From Escherichia coli (GTDB lineage Bacteria > Pseudomonadota > Gammaproteobacteria > Enterobacterales > Enterobacteriaceae), in NCBI RefSeq assembly GCF_003018255.1, contig NZ_CP027440.1: DNA of 64,000 nt, one strand, 5' to 3'. The position numbers were made by a program, and so were the translations under genes. Shown here in pieces: positions 590-45,885 of the stretch; the first letter of the stretch is position 1, and every line of letters starts with the position of its first letter. The notes beneath the pieces are model-generated. The model was not told the DNA's origin, made no database searches, and worked only from the letters and a program-made list of their open reading frames with translations.

Positions 590-674
590 GCCGAAGTGGC
601 GAAATCGGTAGACGCAGTTGATTCAAAATCAACCGTAGAAATACGTGCCGGTTCGAGTCCGGCCTTCGGCACCA
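590..674 (+). tRNA. leuX: tRNA-Leu, anticodon CAA
   Basis: 85-nt GCCGAAGTGGCGAAATCGGTAGACGCAGTTGATTCAAAATCAACCGTAGAAATACGTGCCGGTTCGAGTCCGGCCTTCGGCACCA with a CAA anticodon loop, long variable arm and 3' CCA. A P4-type integrase gene follows immediately downstream. Confidence 0.9.
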
Positions 675-896: not shown

Positions 897-2573
897 ATGG
901 CACTAACAGATCGCGCTATAGTCCACGCCAAGCCTTGTGGCAAGCCGTATAAGCTCAGTGACTCGCATGGACTTTACCTGCTGGTTAACCCTAACGGTTC
1001 AAAACGCTGGTACATCAAGTACCGCTTTGTAAACAAAGAGAAAAAGCTCGCTTTAGGCCCTTATCCGCTTTTGACGCTTGCACAGGCAAGACGCATGCGT
1101 GAAGAGGCACAATTATTGCTGATTTCCGGCATCGATCCGAGTGCACGCCGAAAAGCAGAACGCCTTGCGATAACGCCGGAACATACGTTTGAGTCTGTGG
1201 CACGTGAATGGGTCACCAGTAACGTGAACTGGTCGGCGGAACATAAGAAGCGGGTGCTGCGTTATTTCGAGCTTTACGTATTCCCCACGAACGGCAGCTG
1301 TGACATCACCAAAATGAAGGTCAAAGATCTGCTGGTGCCCATCAAGGAAGTGGAGAAAGCGGGCAAACTGGATGTTGCTTCCCGGCTTCAGCAGCGCACT
1401 GCCTGCGTGATGCGCTACGCCGTCCAGAACGGCATTATCGATCATAACCCTGCATCAGATTTAACCGGCGCGGTCTCCACGCCCAAAGTACGGCATCACC
1501 CGGCGTTGGATCTGAATCTTATCCCTGATTTCCTGGAAAGAATCGACGATTACAAAGGCCGTCAACTGACTCAACTGGCGGTAAAACTGGCACTGCTGCT
1601 GTTTATCCGCTCCAGCGAACTGCGCTTTGCCCGCTGGGATGAAATTGATCTGCGTAACGCCATGTGGACCATCCCCGCTGAGCGTGAGCCGATCCCCGGC
1701 GTTAAATATTCAGCGCGTGGGGCGAAGATGCACTCCCCACACCTGGTCCCATTGTCACGTCAGGCCATCGAACTGCTGCACGAGGTGCGGCAGCATTGCC
1801 GACCGGGAACTGAACTGGTGTTCCCCGGCGATCACAATTACCGCAAGCCGATGAGTGAAAACACCATCAACAAAGCGCTGCGGGTGATGGGCTACGACAC
1901 CCAGAAAGATGTCTGTGGCCACGGTTTTCGCACTATGGCCTGTAGCGCGCTGGTGGAGTCGGGGCTGTGGTCAAGCGACGCGGTAGAGCGCCAGATGAGC
2001 CATCAGGAGCGCAAGCGCGTGCGTGCGGCGTATATCCACAAGGCGCAGCATCTCGAAGAACGTTGGGAGATGATGCAGTGGTGGGCGGATTATCTGGATG
2101 CAAACCGGTTCAGGCATGTTGTGCCGTATGGCTTCAAAAAGTCGCCGGGAGGCGCACTCGACCATATGAGTTTCCAGGAGCGCAATGACCGGCAGCTAGA
2201 GGAGCTGAAAGCCAGAATACTGGCTGACTCGGAATGGCTGACGGCGTCTGAATTATCCGCAAAAGCGGGCTTTCGTTCCGCCGATCCTGATGCTGGTCCG
2301 AAAGGCTGGAAAGCCGCCGGGAAGATATTCTCGCTGAAGGTCGATGGTGAGGATTTATACCCTGATTATGTTCTGGATGAGAAAATGCGGCCTCTCAAGG
2401 TTGTCCGTTTGATTCTTTCACTGTTTAAGGAGCGTAAAACACCGTGGGGGCTGGCTATCTGGTTTGGCTCGGCTAATCGCAGGTTGAGAGGTGGGAGGCC
2501 GAAAGACCTGCTGATTTCGAAGTCAGAGTTGGTTCTGATGGCGGCGCAGGAGGAGGTGGAGTCGGGGGAGTAG
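897..2573 (+). CDS. P4-type tyrosine integrase with an unusual ~140-aa C-terminal extension
   Basis: 558-aa ORF starting MALTDRAIVHAKPCGKPYKLSDSHGLYLLVNPNGSKRWYIKYRF, typical P4/CP4-57-type integrase N-terminus with catalytic-domain motifs (HGFR, RAAY). The ORF runs ~140 aa beyond the usual integrase end (...WADYLDANR). Confidence 0.85.
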   Translation: MALTDRAIVHAKPCGKPYKLSDSHGLYLLVNPNGSKRWYIKYRFVNKEKKLALGPYPLLTLAQARRMREEAQLLLISGIDPSARRKAERLAITPEHTFESVAREWVTSNVNWSAEHKKRVLRYFELYVFPTNGSCDITKMKVKDLLVPIKEVEKAGKLDVASRLQQRTACVMRYAVQNGIIDHNPASDLTGAVSTPKVRHHPALDLNLIPDFLERIDDYKGRQLTQLAVKLALLLFIRSSELRFARWDEIDLRNAMWTIPAEREPIPGVKYSARGAKMHSPHLVPLSRQAIELLHEVRQHCRPGTELVFPGDHNYRKPMSENTINKALRVMGYDTQKDVCGHGFRTMACSALVESGLWSSDAVERQMSHQERKRVRAAYIHKAQHLEERWEMMQWWADYLDANRFRHVVPYGFKKSPGGALDHMSFQERNDRQLEELKARILADSEWLTASELSAKAGFRSADPDAGPKGWKAAGKIFSLKVDGEDLYPDYVLDEKMRPLKVVRLILSLFKERKTPWGLAIWFGSANRRLRGGRPKDLLISKSELVLMAAQEEVESGE

Positions 2574-2756: not shown

Positions 2757-3770
2757 ATGAGGTGTGAACAAATGAAGGAAGAACAGCTTTTGTCTGATGC
2801 GATAGAGAATCTGCCAAAAGGATTCCATTTGCAGTATGAACATAGCGGTAGACATGGTAAGCACGATGCCTGGGGTAAGCTAACAGGGCCGGATGGTGAG
2901 TCAGTGATATTTGCTCTGGAAGTAAAATTTATCCACCGTAAAGAGTCACTGATGGCTGTTCGCGAACAAATGGTTCGCTTTCCTGCGGATTTTCCTGTGC
3001 TGCTGGTGTGTAACCGCCTGACGTCTGCACTGGCGGAATATTGCGCCGACAGCCAGATCAACTTTATCGATACGGCAGGGAATGCCCGTATCCAGGTTCC
3101 AGGCTTGTATGTGCGGATCGAAGGCCGCTATGAAAAGAAACCCGTTTCCGCCAGCAGTCGTTTTGCTGAAGGGGTGATGAAGCTTCTTTTTGTTTTGCTG
3201 TCTAGCCCAGAGACCCTGAACGAGACTTACCGCAGTCTGGCCGGAAAGGCAGGTATCTCTCTGGGAATGGTCAGCAAGGCTTTTGATTATCTCGAAGCGC
3301 AACGCTATTTCCGCAAATCGAAGAAGGGGCGTCGCTTAATCAATGAAGGCGAGTTAGAGGCTTTGTGGCTGAAAGATTATGCTACAGCTTTGCGCCCTAA
3401 GCTGGATTCGCTTTCTTTATCCGCGCCTGTTTCATGGGATGAGTTGACGCTTGCGTCCGGGGAATACTGGAGCGGCGAGATTGCGGCGGCAAAGCTGAGC
3501 GGAGGATACCTGATACCAGAAAATGGCGTGATTTTTACATCCCATCCGTTGTTACAAAGGCGAAAGGAACTGGGACTAAAACCTGTTCCGGGGGGGAAAC
3601 TACAGCTGATCGCCGGTTTTTGGGGGAACTTTGTACTGAATCACAAAGCCGAGGCGATGCTATGCGTGGCTGAACTGCTGGCAAGCGGGGATGACAGAAA
3701 CTGGGAAACAGCAAGGATAATCAATGACAAATATCTTCACCTTAATGAATCCGATCTCTTCAGCTACTGA
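2757..3770 (+). CDS. Hypothetical protein, first gene of two-gene cassette; possible DNA-binding or antitoxin-like partner of the nucleotidyltransferase
   Basis: 337-aa ORF (alternative start 2772). N-terminal segment PDGESVIFALEVKF resembles a PD-(D/E)xK motif; central segment GISLGMVSKAFDYLEAQRYFRK looks like a helix-turn-helix. Overlaps the downstream gene. Confidence 0.55.
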   Translation: MRCEQMKEEQLLSDAIENLPKGFHLQYEHSGRHGKHDAWGKLTGPDGESVIFALEVKFIHRKESLMAVREQMVRFPADFPVLLVCNRLTSALAEYCADSQINFIDTAGNARIQVPGLYVRIEGRYEKKPVSASSRFAEGVMKLLFVLLSSPETLNETYRSLAGKAGISLGMVSKAFDYLEAQRYFRKSKKGRRLINEGELEALWLKDYATALRPKLDSLSLSAPVSWDELTLASGEYWSGEIAAAKLSGGYLIPENGVIFTSHPLLQRRKELGLKPVPGGKLQLIAGFWGNFVLNHKAEAMLCVAELLASGDDRNWETARIINDKYLHLNESDLFSY

Positions 3771-4533
3771 AACGTTACTGAGTCAGATCAACCGTATTTG
3801 CACCGCTCAGGGGATCCCGTTTTTTATTGCAGGTGCAACGGCTCGTGAAATTCTGCTCCATCATATACACAGCAGAAGTATTGGTCGCCGAACCCGTGAT
3901 ATTGATATTGCCGTCTTTGTGGATAGCTGGCCGAGATTTGATGCGCTTAAAAATGCTTTCCTTGCTGAAGGGGCAGAAGTTGTCCAAGGTAATGCCCATC
4001 GTATGATTGTCAAAGGGATCGAGCTAGATATTATTCCTTTTGGTGGTGTTGCTGAAGGAAATCAAATTGCCTGGCCACCAGAACGTGAGATCATAATGGC
4101 TGTGGATGGATTTGCCGAAGTCTTTTCTCATACCGTAGTTGTGCGGCTGGATAACAGCGAAAATATTCCGTTCTGCTCCTTGCCAGGACTGGCTCTGTTA
4201 AAACTTTTTGCATGGCGTGATCGTGGGCATGGGAGTACTAAAGACGCGACCGATCTCTTTAAGATTATCTGTGAATATGGTGTTATCGAGAATGAACGCA
4301 TCTATGAATCGCCCGTCGAAGGGGAACGCCTGAACTGGGATCCCATACGTATGGGCGCTTTTCTGTTGGGAAGCGATATAGCGACAATTAGTGAACACTC
4401 ATCCTTGCAGGATTTACTCCATCTTGATAAAGAACGCCTGATCGATGTGATAGTACGACAACATGACGTGGGTGATGCTGGGATTGAGCAGATCATCAAT
4501 GATTTCTGGGATGGTATGGCAAGTGATGGTTGA
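3724..4533 (+). CDS. Nucleotidyltransferase-fold protein (Pol-beta superfamily; AbiEii/DUF1814-like or MNT-like)
   Basis: 269-aa ORF with the minimal NTase signature AGATAREILL...RRTRDIDIAVFVD (Gly-rich loop followed by DxD) and a downstream acidic motif GIELDIIPFG. Start codon uncertain; overlaps the upstream gene. Confidence 0.6.
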   Translation: MTNIFTLMNPISSATETLLSQINRICTAQGIPFFIAGATAREILLHHIHSRSIGRRTRDIDIAVFVDSWPRFDALKNAFLAEGAEVVQGNAHRMIVKGIELDIIPFGGVAEGNQIAWPPEREIIMAVDGFAEVFSHTVVVRLDNSENIPFCSLPGLALLKLFAWRDRGHGSTKDATDLFKIICEYGVIENERIYESPVEGERLNWDPIRMGAFLLGSDIATISEHSSLQDLLHLDKERLIDVIVRQHDVGDAGIEQIINDFWDGMASDG

Positions 4534-4581
4534 GGATGTAGTTTTAGATGAAATGTTCACAACAGAGTTTTGTTCATGAAT

Positions 4582-4598
4582 CATGAACGGTATTATTG
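4582..4598 (+). promoter_or_regulatory. Second copy of palindrome GTTCATGAATCATGAAC, part of a ~45-bp direct repeat of the cassette leader
   Basis: 4563-4607 repeats 2721-2772 at roughly 85 percent identity, including the palindrome and a GTGAACAA-ATG start context. Confidence 0.45.
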
Positions 4599-4678
4599 TG
4601 AACAATGGCAGGGCGTAACGCCAACTGCCCGATTAAGATGCGCTTATGTTATCAATAATGCCAGCCCAGAGTCAGTCG

Positions 4679-4797
4679 CGACATCATCAAACTGAAGGTC
4701 AAAGGCTTGCTGGTTCCCATCAAAGATAGTGGAGAACGCAGGTAAACTTGATGTTCCACCTTCCACGGCGCACCGCACCTTCGGCATGATGCGCTAA
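4679..4797 (+). pseudogene. Fragment of a second P4-type integrase gene
   Basis: Nucleotide alignment to 1310-1420 of the intact integrase (gacatcatcaaactgaaggtcaaagg... versus gacatcaccaaaatgaaggtcaaaga...), roughly 75 percent identity with a 1-nt indel. Translates to DIIKLKVKGLLVPIKD then stop. Confidence 0.55.
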
Positions 4798-6585: not shown

Positions 6586-7239
6586 ATGAAGAAGAAACTG
6601 CCAGACCAGCTTTCCAGGGAATGCATTATTGCGGCTATGCGTGCCTATGATGAAGGTGTACGCCACCAGTTCAGCGAGTCCCGGCTGTATGATGTGGTCT
6701 TTGAAGGGCGCAGTTATCCACCGAAAGCTATAGTCGGTATTGCTGCTTCAAATATGACTGGCGTTGAGTTTTCCCCTGAAGATTTTAGTGGTGGTATCAA
6801 GTCGAAATGCGTCAAGTTGCTTACCGATCAAGGGTTCCAGATCGTTGAGAAACATTTGGGTAACGAGCAGCCCGCCATCAGTATTTTTCCTGATGAACTG
6901 CCACCGCAGAGCGTATTTACTGAAGGTGCAGCTACGCAGGTAACGGTTAATCGCTATGAACGCGACCGTAAGGCCCGACAGGCCGCATTAGCCTGGCATG
7001 GTTGTCTGTGCAAAGTATGTGGTATTGATATGATGAAGGTGTATGGCGAGATAGCGAAAGGTTTTATCCATATACACCACCTGATTCCGCTATCAGACAT
7101 CAAAGAGAATTACTCTCTGGATCCCAAAAAAGATTTTATTCCCGTCTGCCCAAATTGCCACGCCATGTTGCATCGGCGTAATCCGCCTTTTTCGCCTGAA
7201 GAATTGAAATCAATTATTGAATATCATGCGGCTCTTTAG
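6586..7239 (+). CDS. HNH endonuclease with N-terminal domain of unknown function (possible modification-dependent restriction enzyme); paralog of 61354-62004
   Basis: C-terminal HNH motif CKVCGIDMMKVYGEIAKGFIHIHHLIPLSDIK...PVCPNCHAMLHRR; about 60 percent amino-acid identity to the ORF at 61354. Confidence 0.7.
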   Translation: MKKKLPDQLSRECIIAAMRAYDEGVRHQFSESRLYDVVFEGRSYPPKAIVGIAASNMTGVEFSPEDFSGGIKSKCVKLLTDQGFQIVEKHLGNEQPAISIFPDELPPQSVFTEGAATQVTVNRYERDRKARQAALAWHGCLCKVCGIDMMKVYGEIAKGFIHIHHLIPLSDIKENYSLDPKKDFIPVCPNCHAMLHRRNPPFSPEELKSIIEYHAAL

Positions 7240-7294: not shown

Positions 7295-8884
7295 CTATTC
7301 GCGCAGCAACTTCAGCCACGGATTATTCACCGGCACTTTCTCCCCCAACACCTGCTTCGGATCTTCCATCAGAAACCCTTTCAACTGACTACTTTTCTTT
7401 TGTGGAACCCGAACCTCGCAGATCCAGATAAAACTGTCATCATTACAGCGCAGGGCCAGCCCTGACTCCTGAAACATTCGTTGCGCCAGTTTCCAGCCGT
7501 CGCCGCTATCGCCTGTGGTTTCTGCTGCGTATGTTTTAAAGATCCCCGGCGAAATCAAGAAAAGATGGTTTTCCACCACATGTACCTTGCCGTTCCGGGT
7601 ATTCACCGTGGCTGAAGGACTAGTGTGGTTCTTCAGCCACTGCAGGAAATTGTTATTGTCACCAAGCCTCGGATCGTCTGCTATCTCCGGTAACGGTTGA
7701 GTCGGTGCGCTAAGTTCAGGAGCGGGTTCGGCTTCAATTACCGGCGTTACATCACCATCGAAACAGGCCGGACGTTGATCATCCTGCCCCCAGATTACAG
7801 ACGGCGTCAGGCGCAGTAGCGTCAGCGGTTCAACGGGCGACCAGCCTTTATCCGATCGGATAATGCAGCGCCAAATCGCTTTATCTTCGTTGGCAACAAT
7901 AAGCTGATGCGTCAGCAGTTCGTCAAACAGGCGGTTATTGTTTTCCGGCACGCTGGAAACTCCATGCTGGAGCAGCCAGGCGCGAACCCGGTCGGCGGTG
8001 GTTTTGCTGATAAGCCACAGCGCATCCTCCGTCAGCCAGCCATCGGATCCGCATTCGGGATTATTGAGCCGGTACTCGTTCTGTACCAGCGACCGCAAGG
8101 CTGTAAGAAGTTGCTGGGGGAAGGAAGAGGGCTTTTGCGCCAGCGCGGTTTTGATATCGCCGCCGAGGTATCGGGCGACAGAGGCTTTATCGGCCTGCTG
8201 CACCAGTTCAGCCAGTGCGCCAGACCGTTCGTAGTGTCCGGTGAGCTGGTAAATCAGGGACGCAAAAGCCGCCGGGTATCCGGCCAGCCAGTCCAGTAAT
8301 GGCGAGGGTATCAACTGATTAATCAGCATTGCGGTAGCCGCCGGATGCAGATGATAGTCGCGACCGTGGCTCTGGTACTGCCAGCGATAAGGCTGTGCCA
8401 GATAACCCTGCCACGAATGCCAGCGGGTGCCATCACGTTGATGAATCTCCATATCCACGGCGATTTTTCCCGTATCGTGCAGTAATGCCACGCAGACCAC
8501 TGCGACCGTCCATGCGCTGGCCTGCCGGGCCTGTTCTTCCGCGCCCGCTTCCGGTGGTAGCAGATAACCCTGGCGCAGTCGGATGGCGTTGCAGGCAACC
8601 TCCAGCGAATGATCCAGCAACCCGCCGGGAGTGGAATGGTGATGACTTTGTGAGGCGGGAAGCAGTTGTACCAACGCGGCGAAGCGATGAATCGCCGCGA
8701 GGATCCAGCTATCAAACAGGGTATCCGGCAGCGGGGTCAGTTGCCGTAACTGGTGCAAACAGGACTGGCGTAACGGCGTCGCCAGCAATTGTTCTGCGGA
8801 TTGTGGCGCAAACCAGCCCTCCGGCAGCGTAGCGTCTGGCGTAGGTGGCTGGCTCTGGGATGGTCTTTTTAGCCACTTCAGCAT
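7295..8884 (-). CDS. ICE relaxase (MobH/TraI-like, HD-hydrolase motif)
   Basis: 529-aa ORF containing HHHSTPGGLLDHSLEVACNA and LLHDTGK, as in HD-domain relaxases of tRNA-inserting ICEs. Confidence 0.6.
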   Translation of the reverse strand: MLKWLKRPSQSQPPTPDATLPEGWFAPQSAEQLLATPLRQSCLHQLRQLTPLPDTLFDSWILAAIHRFAALVQLLPASQSHHHSTPGGLLDHSLEVACNAIRLRQGYLLPPEAGAEEQARQASAWTVAVVCVALLHDTGKIAVDMEIHQRDGTRWHSWQGYLAQPYRWQYQSHGRDYHLHPAATAMLINQLIPSPLLDWLAGYPAAFASLIYQLTGHYERSGALAELVQQADKASVARYLGGDIKTALAQKPSSFPQQLLTALRSLVQNEYRLNNPECGSDGWLTEDALWLISKTTADRVRAWLLQHGVSSVPENNNRLFDELLTHQLIVANEDKAIWRCIIRSDKGWSPVEPLTLLRLTPSVIWGQDDQRPACFDGDVTPVIEAEPAPELSAPTQPLPEIADDPRLGDNNNFLQWLKNHTSPSATVNTRNGKVHVVENHLFLISPGIFKTYAAETTGDSGDGWKLAQRMFQESGLALRCNDDSFIWICEVRVPQKKSSQLKGFLMEDPKQVLGEKVPVNNPWLKLLRE

Positions 8885-11048: not shown

Positions 11049-11291
11049 ATGACCTTGAACAGTAAACACAATGACTGGAGGGATATGCTAATGAACCGAC
11101 AAGATATAAACGCATTAAAGAATTTTGATTTTCTGGCGCGCAGTTTTGCCCGTATGCACGCCCTGGGCCAGCCAGTTGATATCGATGCCGTTACCGGCAA
11201 TATGAGTGATGAACAGCAAGCATGGTTCCGGGAGCGATACGACCACTACCGAAAGCAGGCTGAGCGGGCGAGAGTGATAGAACTGCGGTGA
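11049..11291 (+). CDS. Hypothetical small protein (80 aa)
   Basis: ORF followed directly by a rho-independent terminator. Confidence 0.35.
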
Positions 11292-11300
11292 TGTAACGAA

Positions 11301-11330
11301 CAACGGGCTTAACGGCCCGTTGCGTTTTTT
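11301..11330 (+). terminator. Rho-independent terminator
   Basis: Stem caacgggc / gcccgttg followed by TTTTTT (11325-11330). Confidence 0.5.
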
Positions 11331-11373
11331 CAGACTCCAGCTACCTACCACGAGATTGTCACTGACACGACAG

Positions 11374-11397
11374 TTTATGCGGTGCGCATAAACTCAG
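11374..11397 (+). repeat. Conserved inverted-repeat motif TTTATGCGGTGCGCATAAA(C)TCAG, copy 1 of 2
   Basis: Matches 49043-49066 (19/19 bp plus flanking TCAG) in the same orientation; both copies lie in intergenic DNA bounding ICE operons. Confidence 0.5.
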
Positions 11398-11435
11398 CTA
11401 CAAGCCCTGTTCATCACACCGTCAGTACGAAATCT

Positions 11436-15231: not shown

Positions 15232-15443
15232 CGCGCCTCCGACAGCAGATATTTCTTCTGTCGGGTGTACCGCAATATCTGTTCATCAACGGTATGAAAC
15301 TGGAAGCCGTTACAGAAAATTGTTGAGTTTTACATCATCACCAGACGTTGTTTCTGGTGGTATTCTCTGGTTCAGGCCTGGACTGTGAAGGCAGTTCTGG
15401 CCTGATTTTTTTTCATTTTTTATTTTGATAAGGAGCAAGGCTG

Positions 15444-16034
15444 ATGCCTGAAAAACGAAAGCATCTCACTCGTCATGAAGTGGGACAGATATTGCTTGCA
15501 GCAGACAGAGGGATCCATTTTGAGCGCGATTATTGCCTCATTCAGATGTGTTTTTTACACGGCCTGCGGGTCAGTGAACTGTGCGGGATGCGCCTGTCTG
15601 ATATCGATCTGATCGGGCGCTCGGTGTATGTCCGGCGGTTGAAAAACAGTCTCTCCACGCAGCATCCGCTGTTTGATAATGAACTGCCTGCGCTGATGCG
15701 CTGGCTGGCGGTACGCAACCGCTGGCGGGATGCGGATTCAGACTGGTTGTTCCTGTCGCAGAAGGGTGGTGCGCTGTCGCGCCATCAGGTTAGATTGTTA
15801 CTCAAACGTTACGGAGAACTGGCAGGTGTCAGCATTTCCGCTTATCCGCATATGCTGAGACACGGTTGCGGTTACGCGCTGGCAGATCTGGGGCGCGACA
15901 CCCGTCTGATACAGGATTATCTGGGGCACCGGAACATCCGGCATACGGTGATTTATACGGCGACAAATACGCAGAGGTTTATGAATGTCTGGGGAAACGT
16001 GAGAGAAAACCACACAATTAGTGCCAGAATGTAA
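15444..16034 (+). CDS. FimB/FimE-family tyrosine recombinase (fimbrial phase-switch recombinase)
   Basis: 196 aa; HPHMLRHGCGYALADLGRDTRLIQDYLGHRNIRHTVIYTA is close to the FimE C-terminal catalytic region (R-H-R-Y motifs). Confidence 0.85.
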   Translation: MPEKRKHLTRHEVGQILLAADRGIHFERDYCLIQMCFLHGLRVSELCGMRLSDIDLIGRSVYVRRLKNSLSTQHPLFDNELPALMRWLAVRNRWRDADSDWLFLSQKGGALSRHQVRLLLKRYGELAGVSISAYPHMLRHGCGYALADLGRDTRLIQDYLGHRNIRHTVIYTATNTQRFMNVWGNVRENHTISARM

Positions 16035-16160
16035 AGTAGTATCAGAAAAATTTAGCAAACTGTCAAAATTTTTCTGAGACCCCTTTTGGTAACGGACTAT
16101 CTTGTTGTTTTTAAAATAATATTTAATGTAACAAATATGTAGTCTCTCTCTGGTCCTGGC

Positions 16161-16197
16161 TGGCAACGTGCTTAAGTGGTTCACGTTGCCAGTTTTT
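16161..16197 (+). terminator. Hairpin plus T-run in the recombinase-to-fimbrial-subunit intergenic region
   Basis: tggcaacgtg...cacgttgcca stem followed by agttttta; could instead be part of a switch element. Confidence 0.35.
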
Positions 16198-16401
16198 ACT
16201 CACTCACCGCATTACGGTTTTATGCCATTTTGAAAGCCATACTTCACTTCCACTGACATTTTATTTTTCACCCCCTTCGTCCACCACATTTTCTCCTGAA
16301 CTCACCACTCTGGCACTAACGGGAAAGTCTTACGCGGGTTTTCTCGTCACCAGAGTGAATCAGGGTTGAGCCCTGAGTGATCTTTCATCAAGGAGAAACG
16401 T

Positions 16402-16914
16402 ATGAAAAAAACGATGTTAAGCGCGTGTTTTTTACTGGTGGCCGGGAATGCGGTCGCCAATGATGGCACCATCCATTTTACCGGCAGTATTACCGACCAG
16501 ACATGCACCGTGGACAGCGGTTCGCAAAACCTGAACGTCGATCTGGGCAATGTAGGGCAAACCGCACTGAACGGTGCGGCCGGGATGAAAGCCTCCCCGA
16601 CGCGCTTCACGCTCAACCTGAGTGGTTGCCCTGATACCGTTACCGGGGCGAACGTGAAGTTTGACGGGACGTCTGATGGCGTAAACCAGAACCTGCTGGC
16701 GCTGGACAGCGGTACCGGGATTGCGACCGGCGTTGGTATCGAAATCGCCGATAAAAATGGTGCAGTCATTCCTCTGCATACGGCCTCAATGGATTACCCC
16801 CTCGCGGCAGGCAGCAATACGCTGGACTTCGTCGCCCGCTATGTTTCCACCGGTACCGCGGTAACCACAGGTACAGCTAACGGTACCTCGCAGTTCACCA
16901 TTAACTACAAATAA
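16402..16914 (+). CDS. Major fimbrial subunit (type 1 / chaperone-usher pilin)
   Basis: Signal peptide, conserved Cys pair, C-terminal donor-strand-like TSQFTINYK. Confidence 0.85.
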   Translation: MKKTMLSACFLLVAGNAVANDGTIHFTGSITDQTCTVDSGSQNLNVDLGNVGQTALNGAAGMKASPTRFTLNLSGCPDTVTGANVKFDGTSDGVNQNLLALDSGTGIATGVGIEIADKNGAVIPLHTASMDYPLAAGSNTLDFVARYVSTGTAVTTGTANGTSQFTINYK

Positions 16915-17027
16915 CGCTGTGCCGTCGCGGGGTTCACCACCTCTCCCATCCTACCCGACCTGGTGTACCGCCGCATAACAGGGACTGTTTCGCAGGGATG
17001 CGTATTTTTCGTCCGGAGAACAAGAAG

Positions 17028-17708
17028 ATGAACAGGTATGCAGACGTGGTGCTGGCACTGTTGCTGGCTTTCCTGAGCGTACAGGCGCAGGCCGGGATCG
17101 TGATTGGCGGTACGCGCGTGATTTATGACGGGGATAAAAAAGAGACGGCCGCCTCGGTACGCAACCCGGAGAAATCCGGCGTCTACCTGGTGCAAAGCTG
17201 GGTAGACAGTGGCGAACAGGGGGGCAAAACGCCGTTTATCGTCACGCCACCGTTGTTTCGCATTAATCCCGGCGAAGAGAACATGCTGCGCATTGTGCGC
17301 ACCGGAGGCAACCTGCCGCAGGACAGGGAGTCGGTGTTCTGGCTGAACGTGAAATCGATCCCCGCTACCGACGACAGCCATTCGCGCACCAACGTGTTGC
17401 AGGTAGTGGTCAAGTCGCGGCTGAAACTGTTTTACCGTCCGGCAGGCCTGGAAGGGCAGCCGGAGAGTGCCTATCACCAGTTGAGCGTTGCCCACAGCGG
17501 TAACCATCTTACCGTCAGCAATCCCACACCGTATTACGTCACGCTGTTCACCCTGAAGGTCGACGGGCAGGAGATTAAAGAGGCGGATATGGTGCCGCCG
17601 AAAGGCAGTGTGAGTTTCACGCTACCGTCAGCGACTGCAAGCGCGGTGACCTGGCAGGCCATCAGCGACTATGGCGGTGTCAGCCAGACCGAAAGCCGTA
17701 AGCTGTGA
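17028..17708 (+). CDS. Periplasmic fimbrial chaperone (PapD/FimC family)
   Basis: Start MNRYADVV with GGAGAA ribosome-binding site; signal peptide; chaperone-fold motifs. Confidence 0.85.
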   Translation: MNRYADVVLALLLAFLSVQAQAGIVIGGTRVIYDGDKKETAASVRNPEKSGVYLVQSWVDSGEQGGKTPFIVTPPLFRINPGEENMLRIVRTGGNLPQDRESVFWLNVKSIPATDDSHSRTNVLQVVVKSRLKLFYRPAGLEGQPESAYHQLSVAHSGNHLTVSNPTPYYVTLFTLKVDGQEIKEADMVPPKGSVSFTLPSATASAVTWQAISDYGGVSQTESRKL

Positions 17709-17719
17709 AGGAGGACGTG

Positions 17720-20236
17720 ATGAATAACCCGACGCCACGTTTGATGATAATCCTGCTGACGCTGTTGTTGGCAATAGTGCTTTTGTCTGGCTATTTGCGT
17801 AATGCCGAGGCGCGTGAGGTGTTTAACCCCCACGCGCTGGAGATTGATAACCCCGGCCAGCCGGTGGCGGATTTATCCACCTTTGCGGAATCCGGTGGTC
17901 AGCTACCTGGTACCTACCGCGTAACGGTCTTCGTGAACGGTGAAAAGCAGAGCGACGCACAGGATATTGCTTTTATTGACGGAGCCAAAAAGAAACTCAG
18001 CCCGCAGATAACGCCTGCGATGCTGAAAGCCTGGGGCGTCAAAACGGACGTCTTCCCGGCACTGGCAGCACTGCCGCCGGATCAACCACTGGATGATATT
18101 GGCCGCTATATCCCGATGGCCAACACTGAACTGCGCTTCAGTAAATTGCAGTTGAACGTCAGTATTCCCCAGGCGGCAATGAATGCCAGCGCCAGAGGAT
18201 ACGTGGATCCGTCCGAATGGGACGAAGGTGTCCCCGCCGCACTGCTGAACTACAACCTCAGCGGCAGCAACACCTGGCGCGATGGACAAAACGGTTCGGA
18301 TGATAACTACTACGCGAACCTGCAAAGCGGTATCAACCTCGGCGCGTGGCGGCTACGCAACTACTCGACCTGGAATTATGACGAAGATAATGGTAGCCAC
18401 TGGGATTCAGTAAACACGTACCTGCAACGGGATATCCAGCGCCTGAAGGGACAACTGACGCTCGGCGACAGCTACACGCCGTCGGACATCTTCGACAGCG
18501 TCCAGTTTCGCGGCGCGCAGTTGGCATCTGACGACAACATGCTGCCGGACAGCCTGCGCGGGTTCGCCCCGGTGATCCGCGGTATCGCCCAGTCTAACGC
18601 TCAGGTGACCATTAAGCAGAACGGCTACATCATCTACCAGAGCTACGTCGCGCCGGGTGCGTTTACCATCACCGATCTGTATCCGACCTCGGGCAGCGGT
18701 GACCTGGAAGTGACCATCAAAGAGGCCGACGGCAGCGAGCGCACCTTCGTCCAGCCGTTCTCGGCGGTGCCGATTATGCAACGTGAAGGCCGCCTGAAAT
18801 ATGCCCTGACCGCCGGGAAATACCGCAGCGGCAATGAGGACAGCGACGAGCCGCAGTTCGGCCAGGTCACTGCGATTTACGGTCTGCCGCATGCTATCAC
18901 CGTCTATGGCGGCACGCTGTACTCGGACGATTATCAGTCTGGCGCCGCAGGGCTCGGTTTTGGCCTCGGTGAACTCGGTTCGCTGTCAGCCGATATCACC
19001 GCCGCCCATACCACGCTCAATAACGATGAAACCCACAACGGGCAGTCGTACCGGGTGCAGTATTCGAAGGATTTTCAGACCACCGACACCAGCTTCACGC
19101 TGGCGGCATATCGCTACTCCACCGCCGGATTTTACACCTTCCAGGAAGCCAACGACCTGAGGGCTGATGATGATAACGGCTGGCAGATGACGTACAACAA
19201 ACGCCAGCGCCTCCAGTTAGATCTCAGTCAGAGTATCGGTAGCTATGGCTCGTTTTTTATCTCCGGCTACCAGCAGGATTACTGGCAGGAGGACGGCTAC
19301 GAACGCACGTTGAGCGCGGGCTGGAACGGGAATATCGACGGTATCAGCTACAGCGTTACCTGGAGTTACAGCGACTACCCGGAGAGCACGCAGCCTGCCG
19401 ACCAGCAACTGGCGTTCAACATCCAGGTGCCGCTCAGCCGCTTTATGCCGAACGCCTGGGCGAGCTACAGCGTCAACACCGCGAAACACGGCGATACCCG
19501 CCAGCAGGTAGGGCTGAACGGTACGGCGCTTGCCGACAACAACCTGAGCTACAGCCTCCAGCAGAGCTACACCAACCATGGTGTGGGCGGCTCCGGCAAT
19601 ATCAACGCCGACTATAAAGGCGGGCAGGGGGAAATCACCGGAGGCTACAACTATGACGACGACACGCAGCAGGTTAACTACGGGCTGAAGGGCGGTATTG
19701 TCGCGCATCCGCATGGCATCACGCTTTCGCAGCCGCTCGGCCAGTCGCTGGCGATCGTGAAAGCGCCCGGTGCGGATGATACGAAGGTACAGAACAACAC
19801 CGGGGTTTACACCGACTGGCGCGGTTATGCGGTAGTGCCGTATGTGAACCCGTACAAGAAAAACCGTATTGCGCTCGACACCAGCACGCTTGGCGACGAA
19901 GTGGATACCGACACTGCCGTACAGACCGTGACCCCCACGCAGGGTGCCGTGGTGATGGCGGATTTTAACACCCGTGTCGGGCGGCGTGTGCTCATGACGC
20001 TGCTGTACCGTGGGCTGCCAGTCCCCTTTGGCGCAGAGGCGAAGCTGAAAGAGGGCGGCAGCGGTATTGTCGGCGATGATGGCCAGGTCTATCTGACTGG
20101 CGTGCCGGAGGAAGGCGATATTGCGGTTAACTGGAACGGAGCACAACAGTGCGTGGTGCATTACCGTTTACCGGAACAGGAAAACCAGCCGTCAGTGATC
20201 CTGGTGAACCAGGAATGCAGGGAGGTGGCAAAATGA
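17720..20236 (+). CDS. Outer-membrane fimbrial usher (FimD/PapC family)
   Basis: About 840 aa, signal peptide, usher length and composition; AGGAGG ribosome-binding site before ATG 17720. Confidence 0.9.
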   Translation: MNNPTPRLMIILLTLLLAIVLLSGYLRNAEAREVFNPHALEIDNPGQPVADLSTFAESGGQLPGTYRVTVFVNGEKQSDAQDIAFIDGAKKKLSPQITPAMLKAWGVKTDVFPALAALPPDQPLDDIGRYIPMANTELRFSKLQLNVSIPQAAMNASARGYVDPSEWDEGVPAALLNYNLSGSNTWRDGQNGSDDNYYANLQSGINLGAWRLRNYSTWNYDEDNGSHWDSVNTYLQRDIQRLKGQLTLGDSYTPSDIFDSVQFRGAQLASDDNMLPDSLRGFAPVIRGIAQSNAQVTIKQNGYIIYQSYVAPGAFTITDLYPTSGSGDLEVTIKEADGSERTFVQPFSAVPIMQREGRLKYALTAGKYRSGNEDSDEPQFGQVTAIYGLPHAITVYGGTLYSDDYQSGAAGLGFGLGELGSLSADITAAHTTLNNDETHNGQSYRVQYSKDFQTTDTSFTLAAYRYSTAGFYTFQEANDLRADDDNGWQMTYNKRQRLQLDLSQSIGSYGSFFISGYQQDYWQEDGYERTLSAGWNGNIDGISYSVTWSYSDYPESTQPADQQLAFNIQVPLSRFMPNAWASYSVNTAKHGDTRQQVGLNGTALADNNLSYSLQQSYTNHGVGGSGNINADYKGGQGEITGGYNYDDDTQQVNYGLKGGIVAHPHGITLSQPLGQSLAIVKAPGADDTKVQNNTGVYTDWRGYAVVPYVNPYKKNRIALDTSTLGDEVDTDTAVQTVTPTQGAVVMADFNTRVGRRVLMTLLYRGLPVPFGAEAKLKEGGSGIVGDDGQVYLTGVPEEGDIAVNWNGAQQCVVHYRLPEQENQPSVILVNQECREVAK

Positions 20237-21237
20237 GAGTATGGCGCGGGATGATTCTGCTGGCGGGGATCCTGTTCTGCCAGGCGTCGTGGGCGTTTTG
20301 CACGTCTTCGGTGAGTTTCTCCATCAGCCCCGGTACGGTGGTGGTCCAGCGGGATGCTGTGGTGGGGGAACCCATTAGCGACTGGCTGGTGTCGAACCAG
20401 GGGATGGCCTATCAGGACTGCAATTATGATGCAACGCCACAATACGTCATCAATGCAGGCATCAAAAACACGGGCTCCCGCGCCAGCGTCACCTGGAATG
20501 GTGAGGCGGTGTTTAACAGTAATGTCGCAGGTGTGGGATTTGTGTTTGAAGGCCGCTCCTCGGTCGACAGCAATCCGTTACCGGAAAACTGGATCGGTAT
20601 CGCCAGCGGGCAGTCGCAGGTATTCACGCTCCAGATAAGCCACAGCGTTGGCTACCATCCCTCCATTAACGATCAGGCGCGGATCCGGCTGATAAAAACC
20701 GGCGACATTACGCCCGGTACGCTGAGCGGCAACCTGGGGCGTTTTATCGCGGGGACAAGGGAGAACGGGCAGTGGTCGACTGAAATTCCCATTACATTTT
20801 CCGGTGGGCAAATCACCACCATCGCCTGCTCAGTGACCACGCCTGATGTCAATGTGCCGCTGGGGCAGCATCAAAAAGCGGAGTTCTCCGGGCCGGGAAC
20901 GGGAACCGGCTGGCAGGCGTTTAACATCGGGCTGGACTGCGATAAAAGTGCCCGTATCAACGTTCAGATAGATGCCGTACAGGATCCGTCCAACGTGGCT
21001 GGCGTGATGAAGCTGGACAGCGCGCCCGGAGACATGGCGGCTACGGGCATCGGTGTCCAGTTGTTCTTTGCACCGGATAACAGCGCCGTACAGTTTGGTC
21101 AGTCACGCTATTACTATACCTCTCCCAATGGCGGTACTGAGACAGTGCAGCTTAAGGCGCGGTATTACCAGACCGCAGCCACGATTACTGCAGGTGTTGC
21201 CAATGCCACGGCGACCTTCACGCTGACCTATAAATGA
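20233..21237 (+). CDS. Fimbrial minor subunit / adhesin-like protein 1
   Basis: Start MRVWRGMILLAGILFCQASWA overlaps the usher stop by 4 bp (ATGA); pilin-type C-terminus ATFTLTYK. Confidence 0.7.
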   Translation: MRVWRGMILLAGILFCQASWAFCTSSVSFSISPGTVVVQRDAVVGEPISDWLVSNQGMAYQDCNYDATPQYVINAGIKNTGSRASVTWNGEAVFNSNVAGVGFVFEGRSSVDSNPLPENWIGIASGQSQVFTLQISHSVGYHPSINDQARIRLIKTGDITPGTLSGNLGRFIAGTRENGQWSTEIPITFSGGQITTIACSVTTPDVNVPLGQHQKAEFSGPGTGTGWQAFNIGLDCDKSARINVQIDAVQDPSNVAGVMKLDSAPGDMAATGIGVQLFFAPDNSAVQFGQSRYYYTSPNGGTETVQLKARYYQTAATITAGVANATATFTLTYK

Positions 21238-21255
21238 CGTCGCCGGAGTGTTGAG

Positions 21256-22203
21256 ATGAGAAAAATTCTTTTCTTCCTGCTGTTGATGATAGCCGTCCTG
21301 CCGGAGGTTCAGGCCACCTGTTCGTTCTACGGTGGTGTGACATCAGAAGTATCGGGTTACCTGAATTTCGGCAACGTGGTTATCCAGCGGGATGCACAGG
21401 TCGGCAGCACGATTGCCACTGCCATTACAGGGGCATACAACAATGGCGACGGCATTGCCGGGTGTAAGCGGGAGGCCTGGACCGCCCGCTGGGAACTGAC
21501 GCAATGGGGGACGCTGAGTGGCTATGGGAATGGTGTCTACAACACCAACCTGCCAGGGGTAGGATTACGTCTGAGTGCGGCCTCGACAGGTAAAACATTG
21601 CCCTATGAAACCAGCTACGCCTACAACGCTGGCGGCACCTGGGTATCCATTCCCGGTGATGGCATCAAGGGCGAGCTTATCAAAACCGGGGATATCACCA
21701 GCGGTACATTAACGGACGGTGTGCTGGCGCGCGCTTCGGTAGTGAATCAGTTTTATTTTGCCAACGTCACGTTGAACGGGATGAACACAGTGAAATCAGA
21801 AGCTTGTACTGTGACCACGCCCTCTGTTGATGTCCCGATGGGGGATCACGATAAAAGCGAATTCAGTGGTGCGGGATCTTCAACCGACTGGGTGAGCTTT
21901 GATATTGGTTTGAGCTGCGATGTCGGGGCGAGAATAAACGTACGTATCGATGCCACTGCGGATGCTTCCGCCGGTTCGCAAGGCGTCATGCTGATTGATA
22001 GCGGCGGGGCGTCTGGCGTGGGGATACAACTTCATTACCGCCCGGATGATGCCGCTGTCCAGTACGGTCAGGAACGGTTTTACTGGCAGTCGGTATATGG
22101 TGACGAGATCGTGCAGCTTAAGGCGCGATATTACCAGACTGCAGGCTCGATCACGCCAGGTGCGGCAAACGGTACGGCGACGTTTACGATGAGTTATAAA
22201 TAG
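21256..22203 (+). CDS. Fimbrial minor subunit / adhesin-like protein 2 (paralog of previous)
   Basis: Signal peptide MRKILFFLLLMIAVLPEVQA; C-terminal pilin domain ATFTMSYK matching the previous gene. Confidence 0.7.
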   Translation: MRKILFFLLLMIAVLPEVQATCSFYGGVTSEVSGYLNFGNVVIQRDAQVGSTIATAITGAYNNGDGIAGCKREAWTARWELTQWGTLSGYGNGVYNTNLPGVGLRLSAASTGKTLPYETSYAYNAGGTWVSIPGDGIKGELIKTGDITSGTLTDGVLARASVVNQFYFANVTLNGMNTVKSEACTVTTPSVDVPMGDHDKSEFSGAGSSTDWVSFDIGLSCDVGARINVRIDATADASAGSQGVMLIDSGGASGVGIQLHYRPDDAAVQYGQERFYWQSVYGDEIVQLKARYYQTAGSITPGAANGTATFTMSYK

Positions 22204-45778: not shown

Positions 45779-45885
45779 CTTAACACTCCGAAAAATGAGG
45801 AATATTCCTCAGAGAGGATCATCAGACTGCCAATTTGAACGAGCAATCAGGGAAAAGTAAAAGTGTGATGCAGGAAACAGGTTAT

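What the first reader, a model, noticed from the sequence alone, without database searches (positions are those of the whole stretch)
6586..7239. Two diverged paralogous HNH endonucleases, one inside the island (6586-7239) and one just outside the candidate attR (61354-62004)
The two proteins share about 60 percent amino-acid identity, the same two-domain layout (unknown ~110-aa N-terminal domain plus C-terminal HNH) and the same orientation, but are diverged at the nucleotide level. Domain order suggests modification-dependent (type IV-like) restriction enzymes. Having one copy on each side of the island boundary is unusual; they may be anti-mobile-element nucleases or a recombination scar from an earlier island.
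Basis: partly seen in the sequence, partly recalled or inferred. Interest (0 to 1): 0.45.

Follow-up and report, generated by a model that had tools for sequence, protein, structure and literature searches.

The report
Two ScoMcrA-head HNH nuclease genes
The two genes are real, anciently diverged members of a widespread but uncharacterised family of small bacterial DNA-cutting enzymes (a "ScoMcrA head" domain tethered to an HNH nuclease), probably defence nucleases; one came in on a conjugative element and the other is a common E. coli resident, so finding both here is coincidence.

Summary
ORFs 6586-7239 (217 aa) and 61354-62004 (216 aa) share 61% amino-acid identity and 63% nucleotide identity. 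Synonymous sites are saturated and dN/dS is about 0.1.

The window is E. coli JNE23-011, at the tRNA-Leu (leuX) to nanS hotspot. Each protein has three parts:
- a ~90-aa N-terminal domain, Pfam PF26345 ScoMcrA_N, the "head" domain of the phosphorothioate-dependent type IV enzyme ScoMcrA, whose function is unknown;
- a ~20-aa disordered linker;
- a McrA-type zinc-finger HNH nuclease with an intact motif.

Copy A is cargo of a PFGI-1/ICEclc-class conjugative element, next to mobH, and occurs in only 7 of 5426 complete E. coli genomes. Copy B is a chromosomal resident, intact in 1238 of 5426. It normally sits back-to-back with an EcoWI-like SBD-HNH phosphorothioate-dependent restriction gene, which here is reduced to a 150-nt stub.

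Sister elements also carry an SBD-HNH gene, so the pairing recurs. But each gene is often kept without the other, so they are not obligate partners.

In larger proteins ScoMcrA_N always caps a modified-DNA reader (EVE, SRA or DUF3427) followed by a nuclease. The best reading is a stand-alone type IV-like defence nuclease of unknown specificity. No attR repeat was found, and the recombination-scar idea is rejected. Interest is modest.

The parts
6586..7239 (+). Copy A: ScoMcrA_N-HNH protein, 217 aa (WP_001561262.1), cargo of the ICE and convergent with mobH
   Evidence: ORF; RefSeq CDS; Pfam HNH at residues 142-198; close homologues carry PF26345 + PF01844; AF2 mean pLDDT 86.9
6586..6861 (+). 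Copy A N-terminal ScoMcrA_N ('head') domain, residues 1-92, with alpha-beta-beta-alpha-alpha-beta order
6862..6921 (+). Copy A flexible linker, residues 93-112
   Evidence: pLDDT 46-64 in the full model and pTM only 0.48; highest dN/dS of the three segments, 0.44
6922..7236 (+). Copy A conserved 'EGxxxxVxVNRYERDxxAR' segment plus zinc-finger HNH nuclease (C142, C145, H162, H164, C188, N190, C191, H192 and H196 invariant)
   Evidence: Invariant columns in A2 and A5; EcoKMcrA 6ghc residues 199-268 aligned; the same module is joined to other N-domains in 71 of 80 genome loci
61354..62004 (+). Copy B: ScoMcrA_N-HNH protein, 216 aa (WP_001561329.1), chromosomal resident of the leuX/nanS hotspot flank
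   Evidence: ORF; RefSeq CDS; intact in 1238 of 5426 E. coli genomes; N-domain residues 1-91 = 61354-61626; Pfam HNH 141-197 = 61774-61944
61068..61217 (-). 5' stub (about 50 codons) of the partner gene, an EcoWI-like SBD-HNH 'phosphorothioated DNA-binding restriction endonuclease', divergent from copy B
   Evidence: RefSeq pseudogene; tblastn 89% to the intact C1 protein over residues 1-54; homology with the intact locus begins at 61074
61218..61353 (.). Divergent intergenic region between the SBD-HNH stub and copy B. It contains the palindrome TTGCGATCATGCTCGCAA (61241-61258), which also lies upstream of the ICE-type SBD-HNH in strain C11
   Evidence: The K-12 counterpart of this region drives translation of YthB
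62004..62093 (+). YthB-like 29-codon small ORF overlapping copy B's stop codon (TAATG)
   Evidence: RefSeq CDS; translation; K-12 YthB comparison
7295..8884 (-). mobH relaxase of the ICE (context: the conserved neighbour of copy A in all sister ICEs inspected)
11291..11434 (.). glgS-traG gap where sister ICEs carry an 873-nt SBD-HNH gene; the gene is absent here
   Evidence: and alignment; tblastn finds no ICE-type SBD-HNH in the window
590..674 (+). tRNA-Leu(CAA) leuX, the integration site of the ICE (context)

Best explanation
Both genes encode stand-alone members of the ScoMcrA_N-HNH family. A small alpha/beta 'head' domain is tethered by a flexible, acidic ~20-residue linker to a McrA-type, zinc-stabilised beta-beta-alpha-metal HNH nuclease. 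I infer that the head domain is the targeting or sensor module and the HNH domain cuts DNA, which would make the protein a methyltransferase-less, type IV-like defence nuclease against incoming DNA; its specificity is unknown. Copy A travels as cargo of a PFGI-1/ICEclc-class integrative conjugative element inserted at tRNA-Leu. Copy B is an old resident of the distal flank of the same hotspot. In the intact state it is one half of a divergent pair with an EcoWI-like SBD-HNH phosphorothioate-dependent restriction enzyme. The two copies are ancient xenologues kept under purifying selection, and their co-occurrence here results from the ICE landing in that hotspot. Shown: sequence, domains, homology to the ScoMcrA head, intact HNH motif, genomic contexts and population frequencies. 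Inferred: nuclease activity, a defence role, and the head domain acting as the targeting module.
For: Identity and selection:
- 61% amino-acid identity; dN/dS 0.10 with saturated dS.
N-domain:
- Pfam ScoMcrA_N on homologues.
- Profile hit to ScoMcrA residues 3-93, E = 3.8e-8.
- About 20 nearly invariant residues in 90 across phyla.
HNH domain:
- Invariant CxxC...HxH...CPNCH...H motif.
- Best sequence and fold matches are EcoKMcrA, TagI, ScoMcrA and Cap5.
- PADLOC type IV models hit both halves.
Domain logic:
- ScoMcrA_N is found in 1302 representative clusters.
- It is joined to HNH or HNH_2 in most of the 87 proteins scanned (39 and 23 members respectively, possibly overlapping), and also to EVE (16), NOV_C (8), DUF3427 (4), McrB-like AAA_5 (3), SRA (2), MrcB_N and Mrr_N.
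- In the multi-domain proteins checked individually it lies N-terminal to the reader domain.
Context:
- Neither copy has an adjacent methyltransferase.
- Relatives sit in defence islands next to type I R-M, GmrSD, NACHT, Mrr_N-HNH, Zorya and BREX.
- Copy A is next to mobH in 4 ICE variants.
- Copy B is intact in 1238 genomes and copy A is present in 7.
Expression:
- The K-12 small protein YthB uses copy B's start codon and upstream region and is detectably made.
Confidence: 0.6

Rival explanations
1. The head-HNH protein is a functional partner of the neighbouring SBD-HNH enzyme. Together they would form a 'split ScoMcrA' (head + SBD + HNH) acting in phosphorothioate-dependent restriction, for example as a hetero-oligomer or as a second nicking subunit.
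For: The divergent SBD-HNH / head-HNH pair is conserved in E. coli, Klebsiella aerogenes and three Citrobacter species. Sister ICEs carry both an A-type head-HNH and their own SBD-HNH (50% identical to the chromosomal one). ScoMcrA fuses head and SBD in one chain. The same palindrome lies upstream of both SBD-HNH types. A C. freundii relative and the C11 ICE sit near dnd/ssp-like genes.
Against: Only 326 of 5426 genomes keep both genes. About 900 keep copy B with the SBD-HNH reduced to a stub (as in this window), and about 900 keep the SBD-HNH with copy B reduced to a 105-nt stub. This ICE lacks the SBD-HNH. Outside Enterobacteriaceae there is no SBD neighbour. The two proteins use different HNH subfamilies, PF01844 versus PF13391. 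The EcoWI sequencing paper uses EcoWI on its own as the digesting enzyme and mentions no partner (PMC9521924).
Confidence: 0.15
2. The head domain is a regulatory or protein-sensing cap, not a DNA reader. The protein would be a non-specific nuclease held inactive until a phage or MGE cue releases it, in an abortive-infection-like way.
For: In the multi-domain proteins checked, the head lies N-terminal to a separate reader domain. It also occurs with STAND/AAA NTPases and NUDIX domains. It is flexibly attached, has neutral net charge and is unusually conserved for a specificity domain.
Against: The two-domain form has no other DNA-binding module apart from the HNH itself. Conserved Lys/Arg at positions 11, 43, 47, 74, 77 and 89 and Gly-rich motifs next to the predicted helix starts (RYPPKA, GGxxSKC) fit nucleic-acid backbone binding. 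No partner gene is conserved across genera.
Confidence: 0.2
3. The genes are selfish or housekeeping HNH genes: homing endonucleases, an ICE transfer accessory working with the MobH relaxase, or leftovers of a recombination event between two islands.
For: Copy A is always adjacent to mobH in the ICE variants seen. HNH domains are common in homing endonucleases. Four Vibrio phage-like elements encode the N-domain.
Against: Neither copy is in an intron or intein context or interrupts a host gene. Most family members lie outside ICEs. There are almost no phage or plasmid copies. The 63% nucleotide identity with saturated dS excludes a recent recombination scar. Copy B varies in presence and decays in many strains, so it is not housekeeping.
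Confidence: 0.05

Closest known systems
ScoMcrA (Streptomyces coelicolor Sco4631; PDB 5zmm), a phosphorothioate- and 5mC-dependent type IV restriction endonuclease
   Different: ScoMcrA is 561 aa and has an SBD and an SRA domain between head and HNH; these do the PT-DNA and modified-base recognition. The window proteins lack both. ScoMcrA's head also lacks several residues that are nearly invariant in this family (H27, S32, D36, PP45-46, SKC73-75; alignment).
EcoKMcrA (PDB 6ghc) and TagI (6ghs), two-domain reader-HNH type IV enzymes
   Same: Same overall design: a small N-terminal targeting domain, a linker and a C-terminal zinc-finger HNH. EcoKMcrA has the closest HNH sequence in the PDB (E = 7.5e-4, residues 199-268).
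EcoWI / E. coli SBD-HNH (NCBIfam NF045808, 'phosphorothioated DNA-binding restriction endonuclease')
   Same: It is the usual divergent neighbour of copy B and is also carried by sister ICEs. It is likewise a small two-domain reader-HNH enzyme.
   Different: It has an SBD reader and an HNH_2 (PF13391) nuclease. Copies A and B score only 11.6 and 16.7 bits against NF045808, whose cutoff is 180, and have no SBD.
EVE-HNH, SRA-HNH and DUF3427-nuclease modification-dependent enzymes (VcaM4I-like, SauUSI-like; these names are from memory)
   Same: ScoMcrA_N occurs fused in front of exactly these reader-nuclease combinations, which places it in the type IV toolkit.
   Different: The window proteins contain none of these reader domains.

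Membership tests
ScoMcrA_N-HNH family (Pfam PF26345 + PF01844) | N-terminal ScoMcrA_N (head) domain | tested here: met
ScoMcrA_N-HNH family (Pfam PF26345 + PF01844) | C-terminal HNH domain with intact zinc and catalytic residues | tested here: met
   PF01844 scores 26.5 and 21.8 bits against a cutoff of 21.4. C142, C145, H162, H164, C188, N190, C191, H192 and H196 are invariant in 60 family members, and both copies have them.
Type IV (modification-dependent) restriction enzyme | Nuclease without a cognate protective methyltransferase | tested here: met
   Copy A's neighbours are HTH proteins, a hypothetical protein and mobH. Copy B's neighbours are the SBD-HNH stub and nanS. The Dcm methyltransferase at 58280-59419 sits in a separate low-GC block next to a Vsr gene.
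Type IV (modification-dependent) restriction enzyme | A domain that recognises modified DNA | tested here: inconclusive
   The head domain has no assigned function. It co-occurs with EVE, SRA, DUF3427 and SBD readers rather than replacing them. Resemblance to winged-helix domains is only weak.
Type IV (modification-dependent) restriction enzyme | Cleavage only of modified substrate DNA | not testable with these tools
   This requires enzyme assays or in vivo restriction tests.
EcoKMcrA family | McrA-type N-terminal 5mC-binding domain | tested here: not met
SBD-HNH phosphorothioate-dependent endonucleases (ScoMcrA/EcoWI, NF045808) | Sulfur-binding domain (PF26340) | tested here: not met
   NF045808 scores 11.6 and 16.7 bits against a cutoff of 180. 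The SBD HMM finds only the neighbouring stub, not copy A or B.
HNH homing endonucleases | Located in an intron, intein or free-standing phage context next to a cleavable target gene | tested here: not met
   The genes occupy fixed chromosomal or ICE positions and do not interrupt a host gene. There are no BFVD matches and only 4 phage-collection hits.

The most novel reading that the evidence does not exclude
ScoMcrA_N is a previously unrecognised DNA-modification or DNA-backbone reader that can target an HNH nuclease on its own. The two-domain proteins would then be a new specificity class of type IV restriction enzyme. This class might be tied to phosphorothioate biology, given the recurrent pairing with SBD-HNH in Enterobacteriaceae, the fusion in ScoMcrA, and the dnd/ssp-like genes near some relatives.
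Probability: 0.3. Interest if true: 0.55.

Novelty: new member of a known kind. Interest (0 to 1): 0.3.

Why it matters
If the head domain proves to be a reader, the 1302 protein clusters at 50% identity that carry it would gain a function. So would the unexplained N-terminal domain of the structurally solved ScoMcrA. A new modification-dependent nuclease could also serve as a mapping reagent, as EcoWI does for phosphorothioates.

For this window the practical value is in the annotation. The two genes do not mark the island boundary and are not a recombination scar. Copy A is defence-type cargo of the ICE, and copy B belongs to the decaying right flank of the leuX hotspot.

Tried and rejected
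- NCBIfam gave only sub-threshold hits to the PT-DNA_restrict model.
- Foldseek against the PDB with the full model was dominated by HNH matches.
- Foldseek against afdb50 was unavailable.
- BFVD gave no significant matches.
- Searches for an attR (the tRNA-Leu 3' end at 25 nt with 3 mismatches and 16 nt with 2 mismatches) found only the tRNA itself. Direct-repeat search found only the 58-nt, 78% identical stretch inside the two HNH genes (D4).
- Promoter and terminator scans were uninformative.
- The genome-contig scan mostly returned proteins that share only the HNH module (71 of 80 loci). Their N-termini are largely unknown to Pfam, so it gave little neighbourhood statistics for the head domain.
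- An 'HNH endonuclease' fragment at the end of the C11 ICE is unrelated to this family.
- A possible SBD-HNH remnant in the window's glgS-traG gap (a 'CAPHK' peptide and a 17-nt match) is too short to call. The same 24-nt palindrome recurs at 49043, so it is more likely a regulatory repeat.
- A literature search for PF26345 or ScoMcrA_N returned nothing.

Full report
**Observation.** The window is E. coli JNE23-011 (NZ_AP045067.1, 423421-487420). ORFs 6586-7239 (217 aa, copy A) and 61354-62004 (216 aa, copy B) are both on the + strand, and RefSeq annotates both as intact 'HNH endonuclease' genes. They share 61% identity over 210 residues without gaps (E = 3e-102). Nucleotide identity is 63%, synonymous sites are saturated (pS 0.74) and dN/dS is about 0.10 overall. 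The dN/dS is 0.16 in the HNH half, 0.44 in the linker, and cannot be computed for the N-domain because its synonymous sites are saturated. The pair is ancient and both copies are under purifying selection; it is not a recent duplication.

**Anatomy.**
- Pfam finds only a C-terminal HNH (PF01844, residues 142-198 in A and 141-197 in B).
- AlphaFold2 on a 60-sequence alignment gives two confident domains joined by a low-confidence segment (residues ~92-112; mean pLDDT 86.9 but pTM 0.48).
- The N-domain modelled alone (residues 1-92, 74 sequences) has pLDDT 95.2 and the order alpha-beta-beta-alpha-alpha-beta.
- The HNH half has an invariant CxxC...HxH...CPNCH...H pattern (C142, C145, H162, H164, C188, N190, C191, H192, H196) in 60 family members and in 67 proteins that share only this module.
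- Its nearest solved relatives are EcoKMcrA, TagI, ScoMcrA and Cap5.

**What the N-domain is.**
- A single-sequence search already hit ScoMcrA (5zmm) residues 30-93 and the PADLOC type IV model built on it.
- A profile of 74 N-domains hits ScoMcrA residues 3-93 at E = 3.8e-8 over the whole domain.
- Homologues in the large protein collection carry precomputed PF26345 + PF01844. The contig tool names PF26345 'ScoMcrA_N' and PF26340 'DNA-SBD_ScoMcrA'. The local Pfam copy is older and lacks these models, which explains the empty scans.
- The ScoMcrA structure paper describes this head domain as small, flexibly attached and of unknown function. Its PT-DNA complexes were obtained with head-less SBD-SRA constructs (PMC6224610).
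- I found no paper mentioning PF26345 or ScoMcrA_N.

**Family and domain logic.**
- The full-length protein has more than 3000 relatives. The N-domain alone matches 1302 cluster representatives at 50% identity.
- Among 87 longer representatives the domain is combined with HNH (39), HNH_2 (23), EVE (16), NOV_C (8), DUF3427 (4), McrB-like AAA_5 (3), SRA (2), MrcB_N, Mrr_N, NUDIX and STAND NTPases.
- Ten of these were inspected individually. ScoMcrA itself is head-SBD-SRA-HNH.
- The domain therefore clearly belongs to the type IV restriction toolkit. In multi-domain proteins, however, it accompanies a known reader rather than replacing one.
- The N-domain is very conserved (about 20 nearly invariant positions in 90). 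Conserved basic residues are R11, R43, K47, K74, K77 and K89, but net charge is about neutral.
- ScoMcrA's own head lacks several of the family's invariant polar residues (alignment).
- Conversely, a genome-wide scan showed that the HNH module, with its 'VNxYERxxxAR' lead-in, is joined to other N-domains in 71 of 80 loci. Most of those N-domains are unknown to Pfam. This is the modular reader-swap pattern typical of McrA-like enzymes.
- The domain is nearly absent from phages (4 Vibrio phage-like elements; no BFVD fold matches) and from plasmids (8 records).

**Context of copy A.**
- tRNA-Leu(CAA) lies at 590-674, followed by a truncated integrase, AbiE, HTH genes, copy A, and then a convergent mobH relaxase. 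A full PFGI-1/ICEclc-class conjugation set follows, up to about 53,000.
- Megablast finds copy A in only 7 of 5426 complete E. coli genomes.
- In the three sister loci inspected (strains C11, A31 and Res13), copy A again abuts mobH. These elements also carry an SBD-HNH gene between glgS and traG.
- In this window that gap is only 145 nt and the gene is absent.
- The C11 element's right-end cargo looks like an SspBCD-SspFGH phosphorothioate system (the system assignment is from memory). In this window the right-end cargo is a low-GC block holding DUF262/DUF3696 genes, a Dcm methyltransferase and a Vsr gene.
- A Citrobacter freundii protein 82% identical to copy A sits at the same ahr-side locus as leuX in E. 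coli without mobH. In one strain it lies next to dnd-like genes.

**Context of copy B.**
- Copy B lies between the variable leuX-island region and nanS/nanM/nanC/fim. It is full-length in 1238 of 5426 genomes, and some piece of it is present in 2162.
- In the intact state (strain C1) it is divergently paired, 137 nt apart, with a 290-aa 'phosphorothioated DNA-binding restriction endonuclease' (SBD + HNH_2). This is the EcoWI type of enzyme (PMC9521924).
- The same divergent pair occurs in Klebsiella aerogenes, where a Mrr_N-HNH gene is also present, and in three Citrobacter species.
- It does not occur in Pantoea, Shewanella, Enterobacter sp. C2, Pseudescherichia or four distant phyla.
- Using the two-gene pair as the query, 326 genomes have both genes. 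Large classes keep the SBD-HNH plus a 105-nt 3' stub of copy B, or copy B plus a ~150-nt 5' stub of the SBD-HNH, which is the state in this window (61068-61217). O157 strains keep only the SBD-HNH.
- Each gene is therefore frequently retained without the other, which argues against obligate partnership. The two proteins also use different HNH subfamilies.
- The ICE-type and chromosomal SBD-HNH proteins are 50% identical, while A and B are 61% identical. The association has thus arisen or been inherited at least twice. This keeps a looser functional link to phosphorothioate restriction alive as a minority hypothesis.

**Island boundary.** GC content drops from about 0.6 (ICE core) to 0.30-0.40 at about 53,000 and rises again after about 60,800. 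Homology with other strains' right flank starts at 60780 (S56) or 61074 (C1), inside the truncated SBD-HNH. Copy B is therefore outside the ICE and outside the variable region, but the boundary is a deletion or replacement junction, not an att site.

**Mechanism (inferred).** The HNH domain should bind one catalytic metal and a structural zinc and nick or cut DNA. The flexibly tethered head most likely supplies target selection, through a DNA backbone, structure or modification feature. The enzyme would then act as a methyltransferase-less, type IV-like barrier to foreign DNA. As ICE cargo it would protect the element's host, and as a resident it is one module of the leuX defence hotspot. I put about 0.6 on this. 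I put 0.2 on the head being a regulatory or sensor cap of an otherwise non-specific nuclease, 0.15 on a functional partnership with the SBD-HNH, and 0.05 on selfish or transfer roles.

**Novelty.** The family is already catalogued (Pfam ScoMcrA_N; PGAP 'HNH endonuclease') but functionally uncharacterised. These are new members of a known kind. Their co-occurrence is explained by an ICE carrying its own copy inserting into a hotspot whose far flank holds a resident copy.

**In passing.** The K-12 small protein YthB (MNKLPAHLSRQN...) is a deletion remnant of this locus. K-12 lost the whole copy B gene between its first ~10 codons and an imperfect repeat just after its stop. This fused copy B's promoter, ribosome-binding site and first five codons to the small ORF that in this window overlaps copy B's stop codon (62004-62093). 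YthB is detectably expressed in K-12 (bioRxiv 10.1101/511675), which indirectly shows that B-type expression signals are active.

Noticed in passing
window 62004-62093 (+); K-12 locus L100 5330-5428: The E. coli K-12 small protein YthB (33 codons, detected by ribosome profiling and tagging) appears to be a deletion scar. K-12 lacks copy B, and YthB starts with copy B's own start (MNKLP) fused to the small ORF that here overlaps copy B's stop codon (TAATG). The junction is a ~15-nt imperfect repeat found both at copy B codons 5-10 and just after its stop. I did not resolve why the gene's 5' end is repeated after its stop.
   Followed up: partly
window 61241-61258; L007 (strain C11) upstream of the ICE-type SBD-HNH: The identical 18-nt palindrome TTGCGATCATGCTCGCAA lies upstream of both the chromosomal SBD-HNH stub and the ICE-type SBD-HNH, although the two proteins are only 50% identical. 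It may be a shared operator or terminator.
   Followed up: no
window 11374-11397 and 49043-49066: A 24-nt near-identical palindromic repeat (TTTATGCGGTGCGCATAAA(C/A)TCAG) occurs twice in ICE intergenic regions, once exactly where sister ICEs carry the SBD-HNH. It could be a regulatory site or a deletion scar.
   Followed up: partly
window 897-2144, 2772-4533, 4673-4726: The ICE integrase is annotated as truncated (missing its C-terminus). An AbiEi/AbiEii toxin-antitoxin pair follows, flanked by 38-nt repeats (2718-2755 and 4554-4591). A second integrase-like fragment (81% identical to 1295-1348) lies at 4673-4726. This suggests the AbiE cassette was inserted into, or rearranged, the integrase region, although sister ICEs have an intact integrase together with AbiE.
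   Followed up: no
window 53211-60100: A low-GC (0.30-0.40) block lies between the ICE core and the hotspot flank. It holds DUF262 + DUF3696 genes (possibly nuclease/ATPase defence genes), hypothetical genes, a Dcm-type cytosine methyltransferase overlapping a hypothetical gene (possibly its restriction partner), and a Vsr very-short-patch repair endonuclease.
   Followed up: no
L099 (E. coli C11, NZ_CP010133.1 1713209-1727183): The sister ICE carries DUF4007, a large ATPase, a PAPS-reductase-family gene, an FtsK-domain protein and two hypothetical genes. This looks like an SspBCD-SspFGH phosphorothioate defence system, in the same element as an SBD-HNH and an A-type head-HNH.
   Followed up: no
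window 15443-22202: The ICE carries a chaperone-usher fimbrial operon preceded by a tyrosine-type DNA invertase, which may be a phase-variable fimbrial switch carried as cargo. It also carries a glgS-like gene (11090-11290).
   Followed up: no
window 45885-47690: The ICE topoisomerase III gene is annotated as a pseudogene with an internal stop, and the integrase is truncated. The element may no longer be mobile.
   Followed up: no
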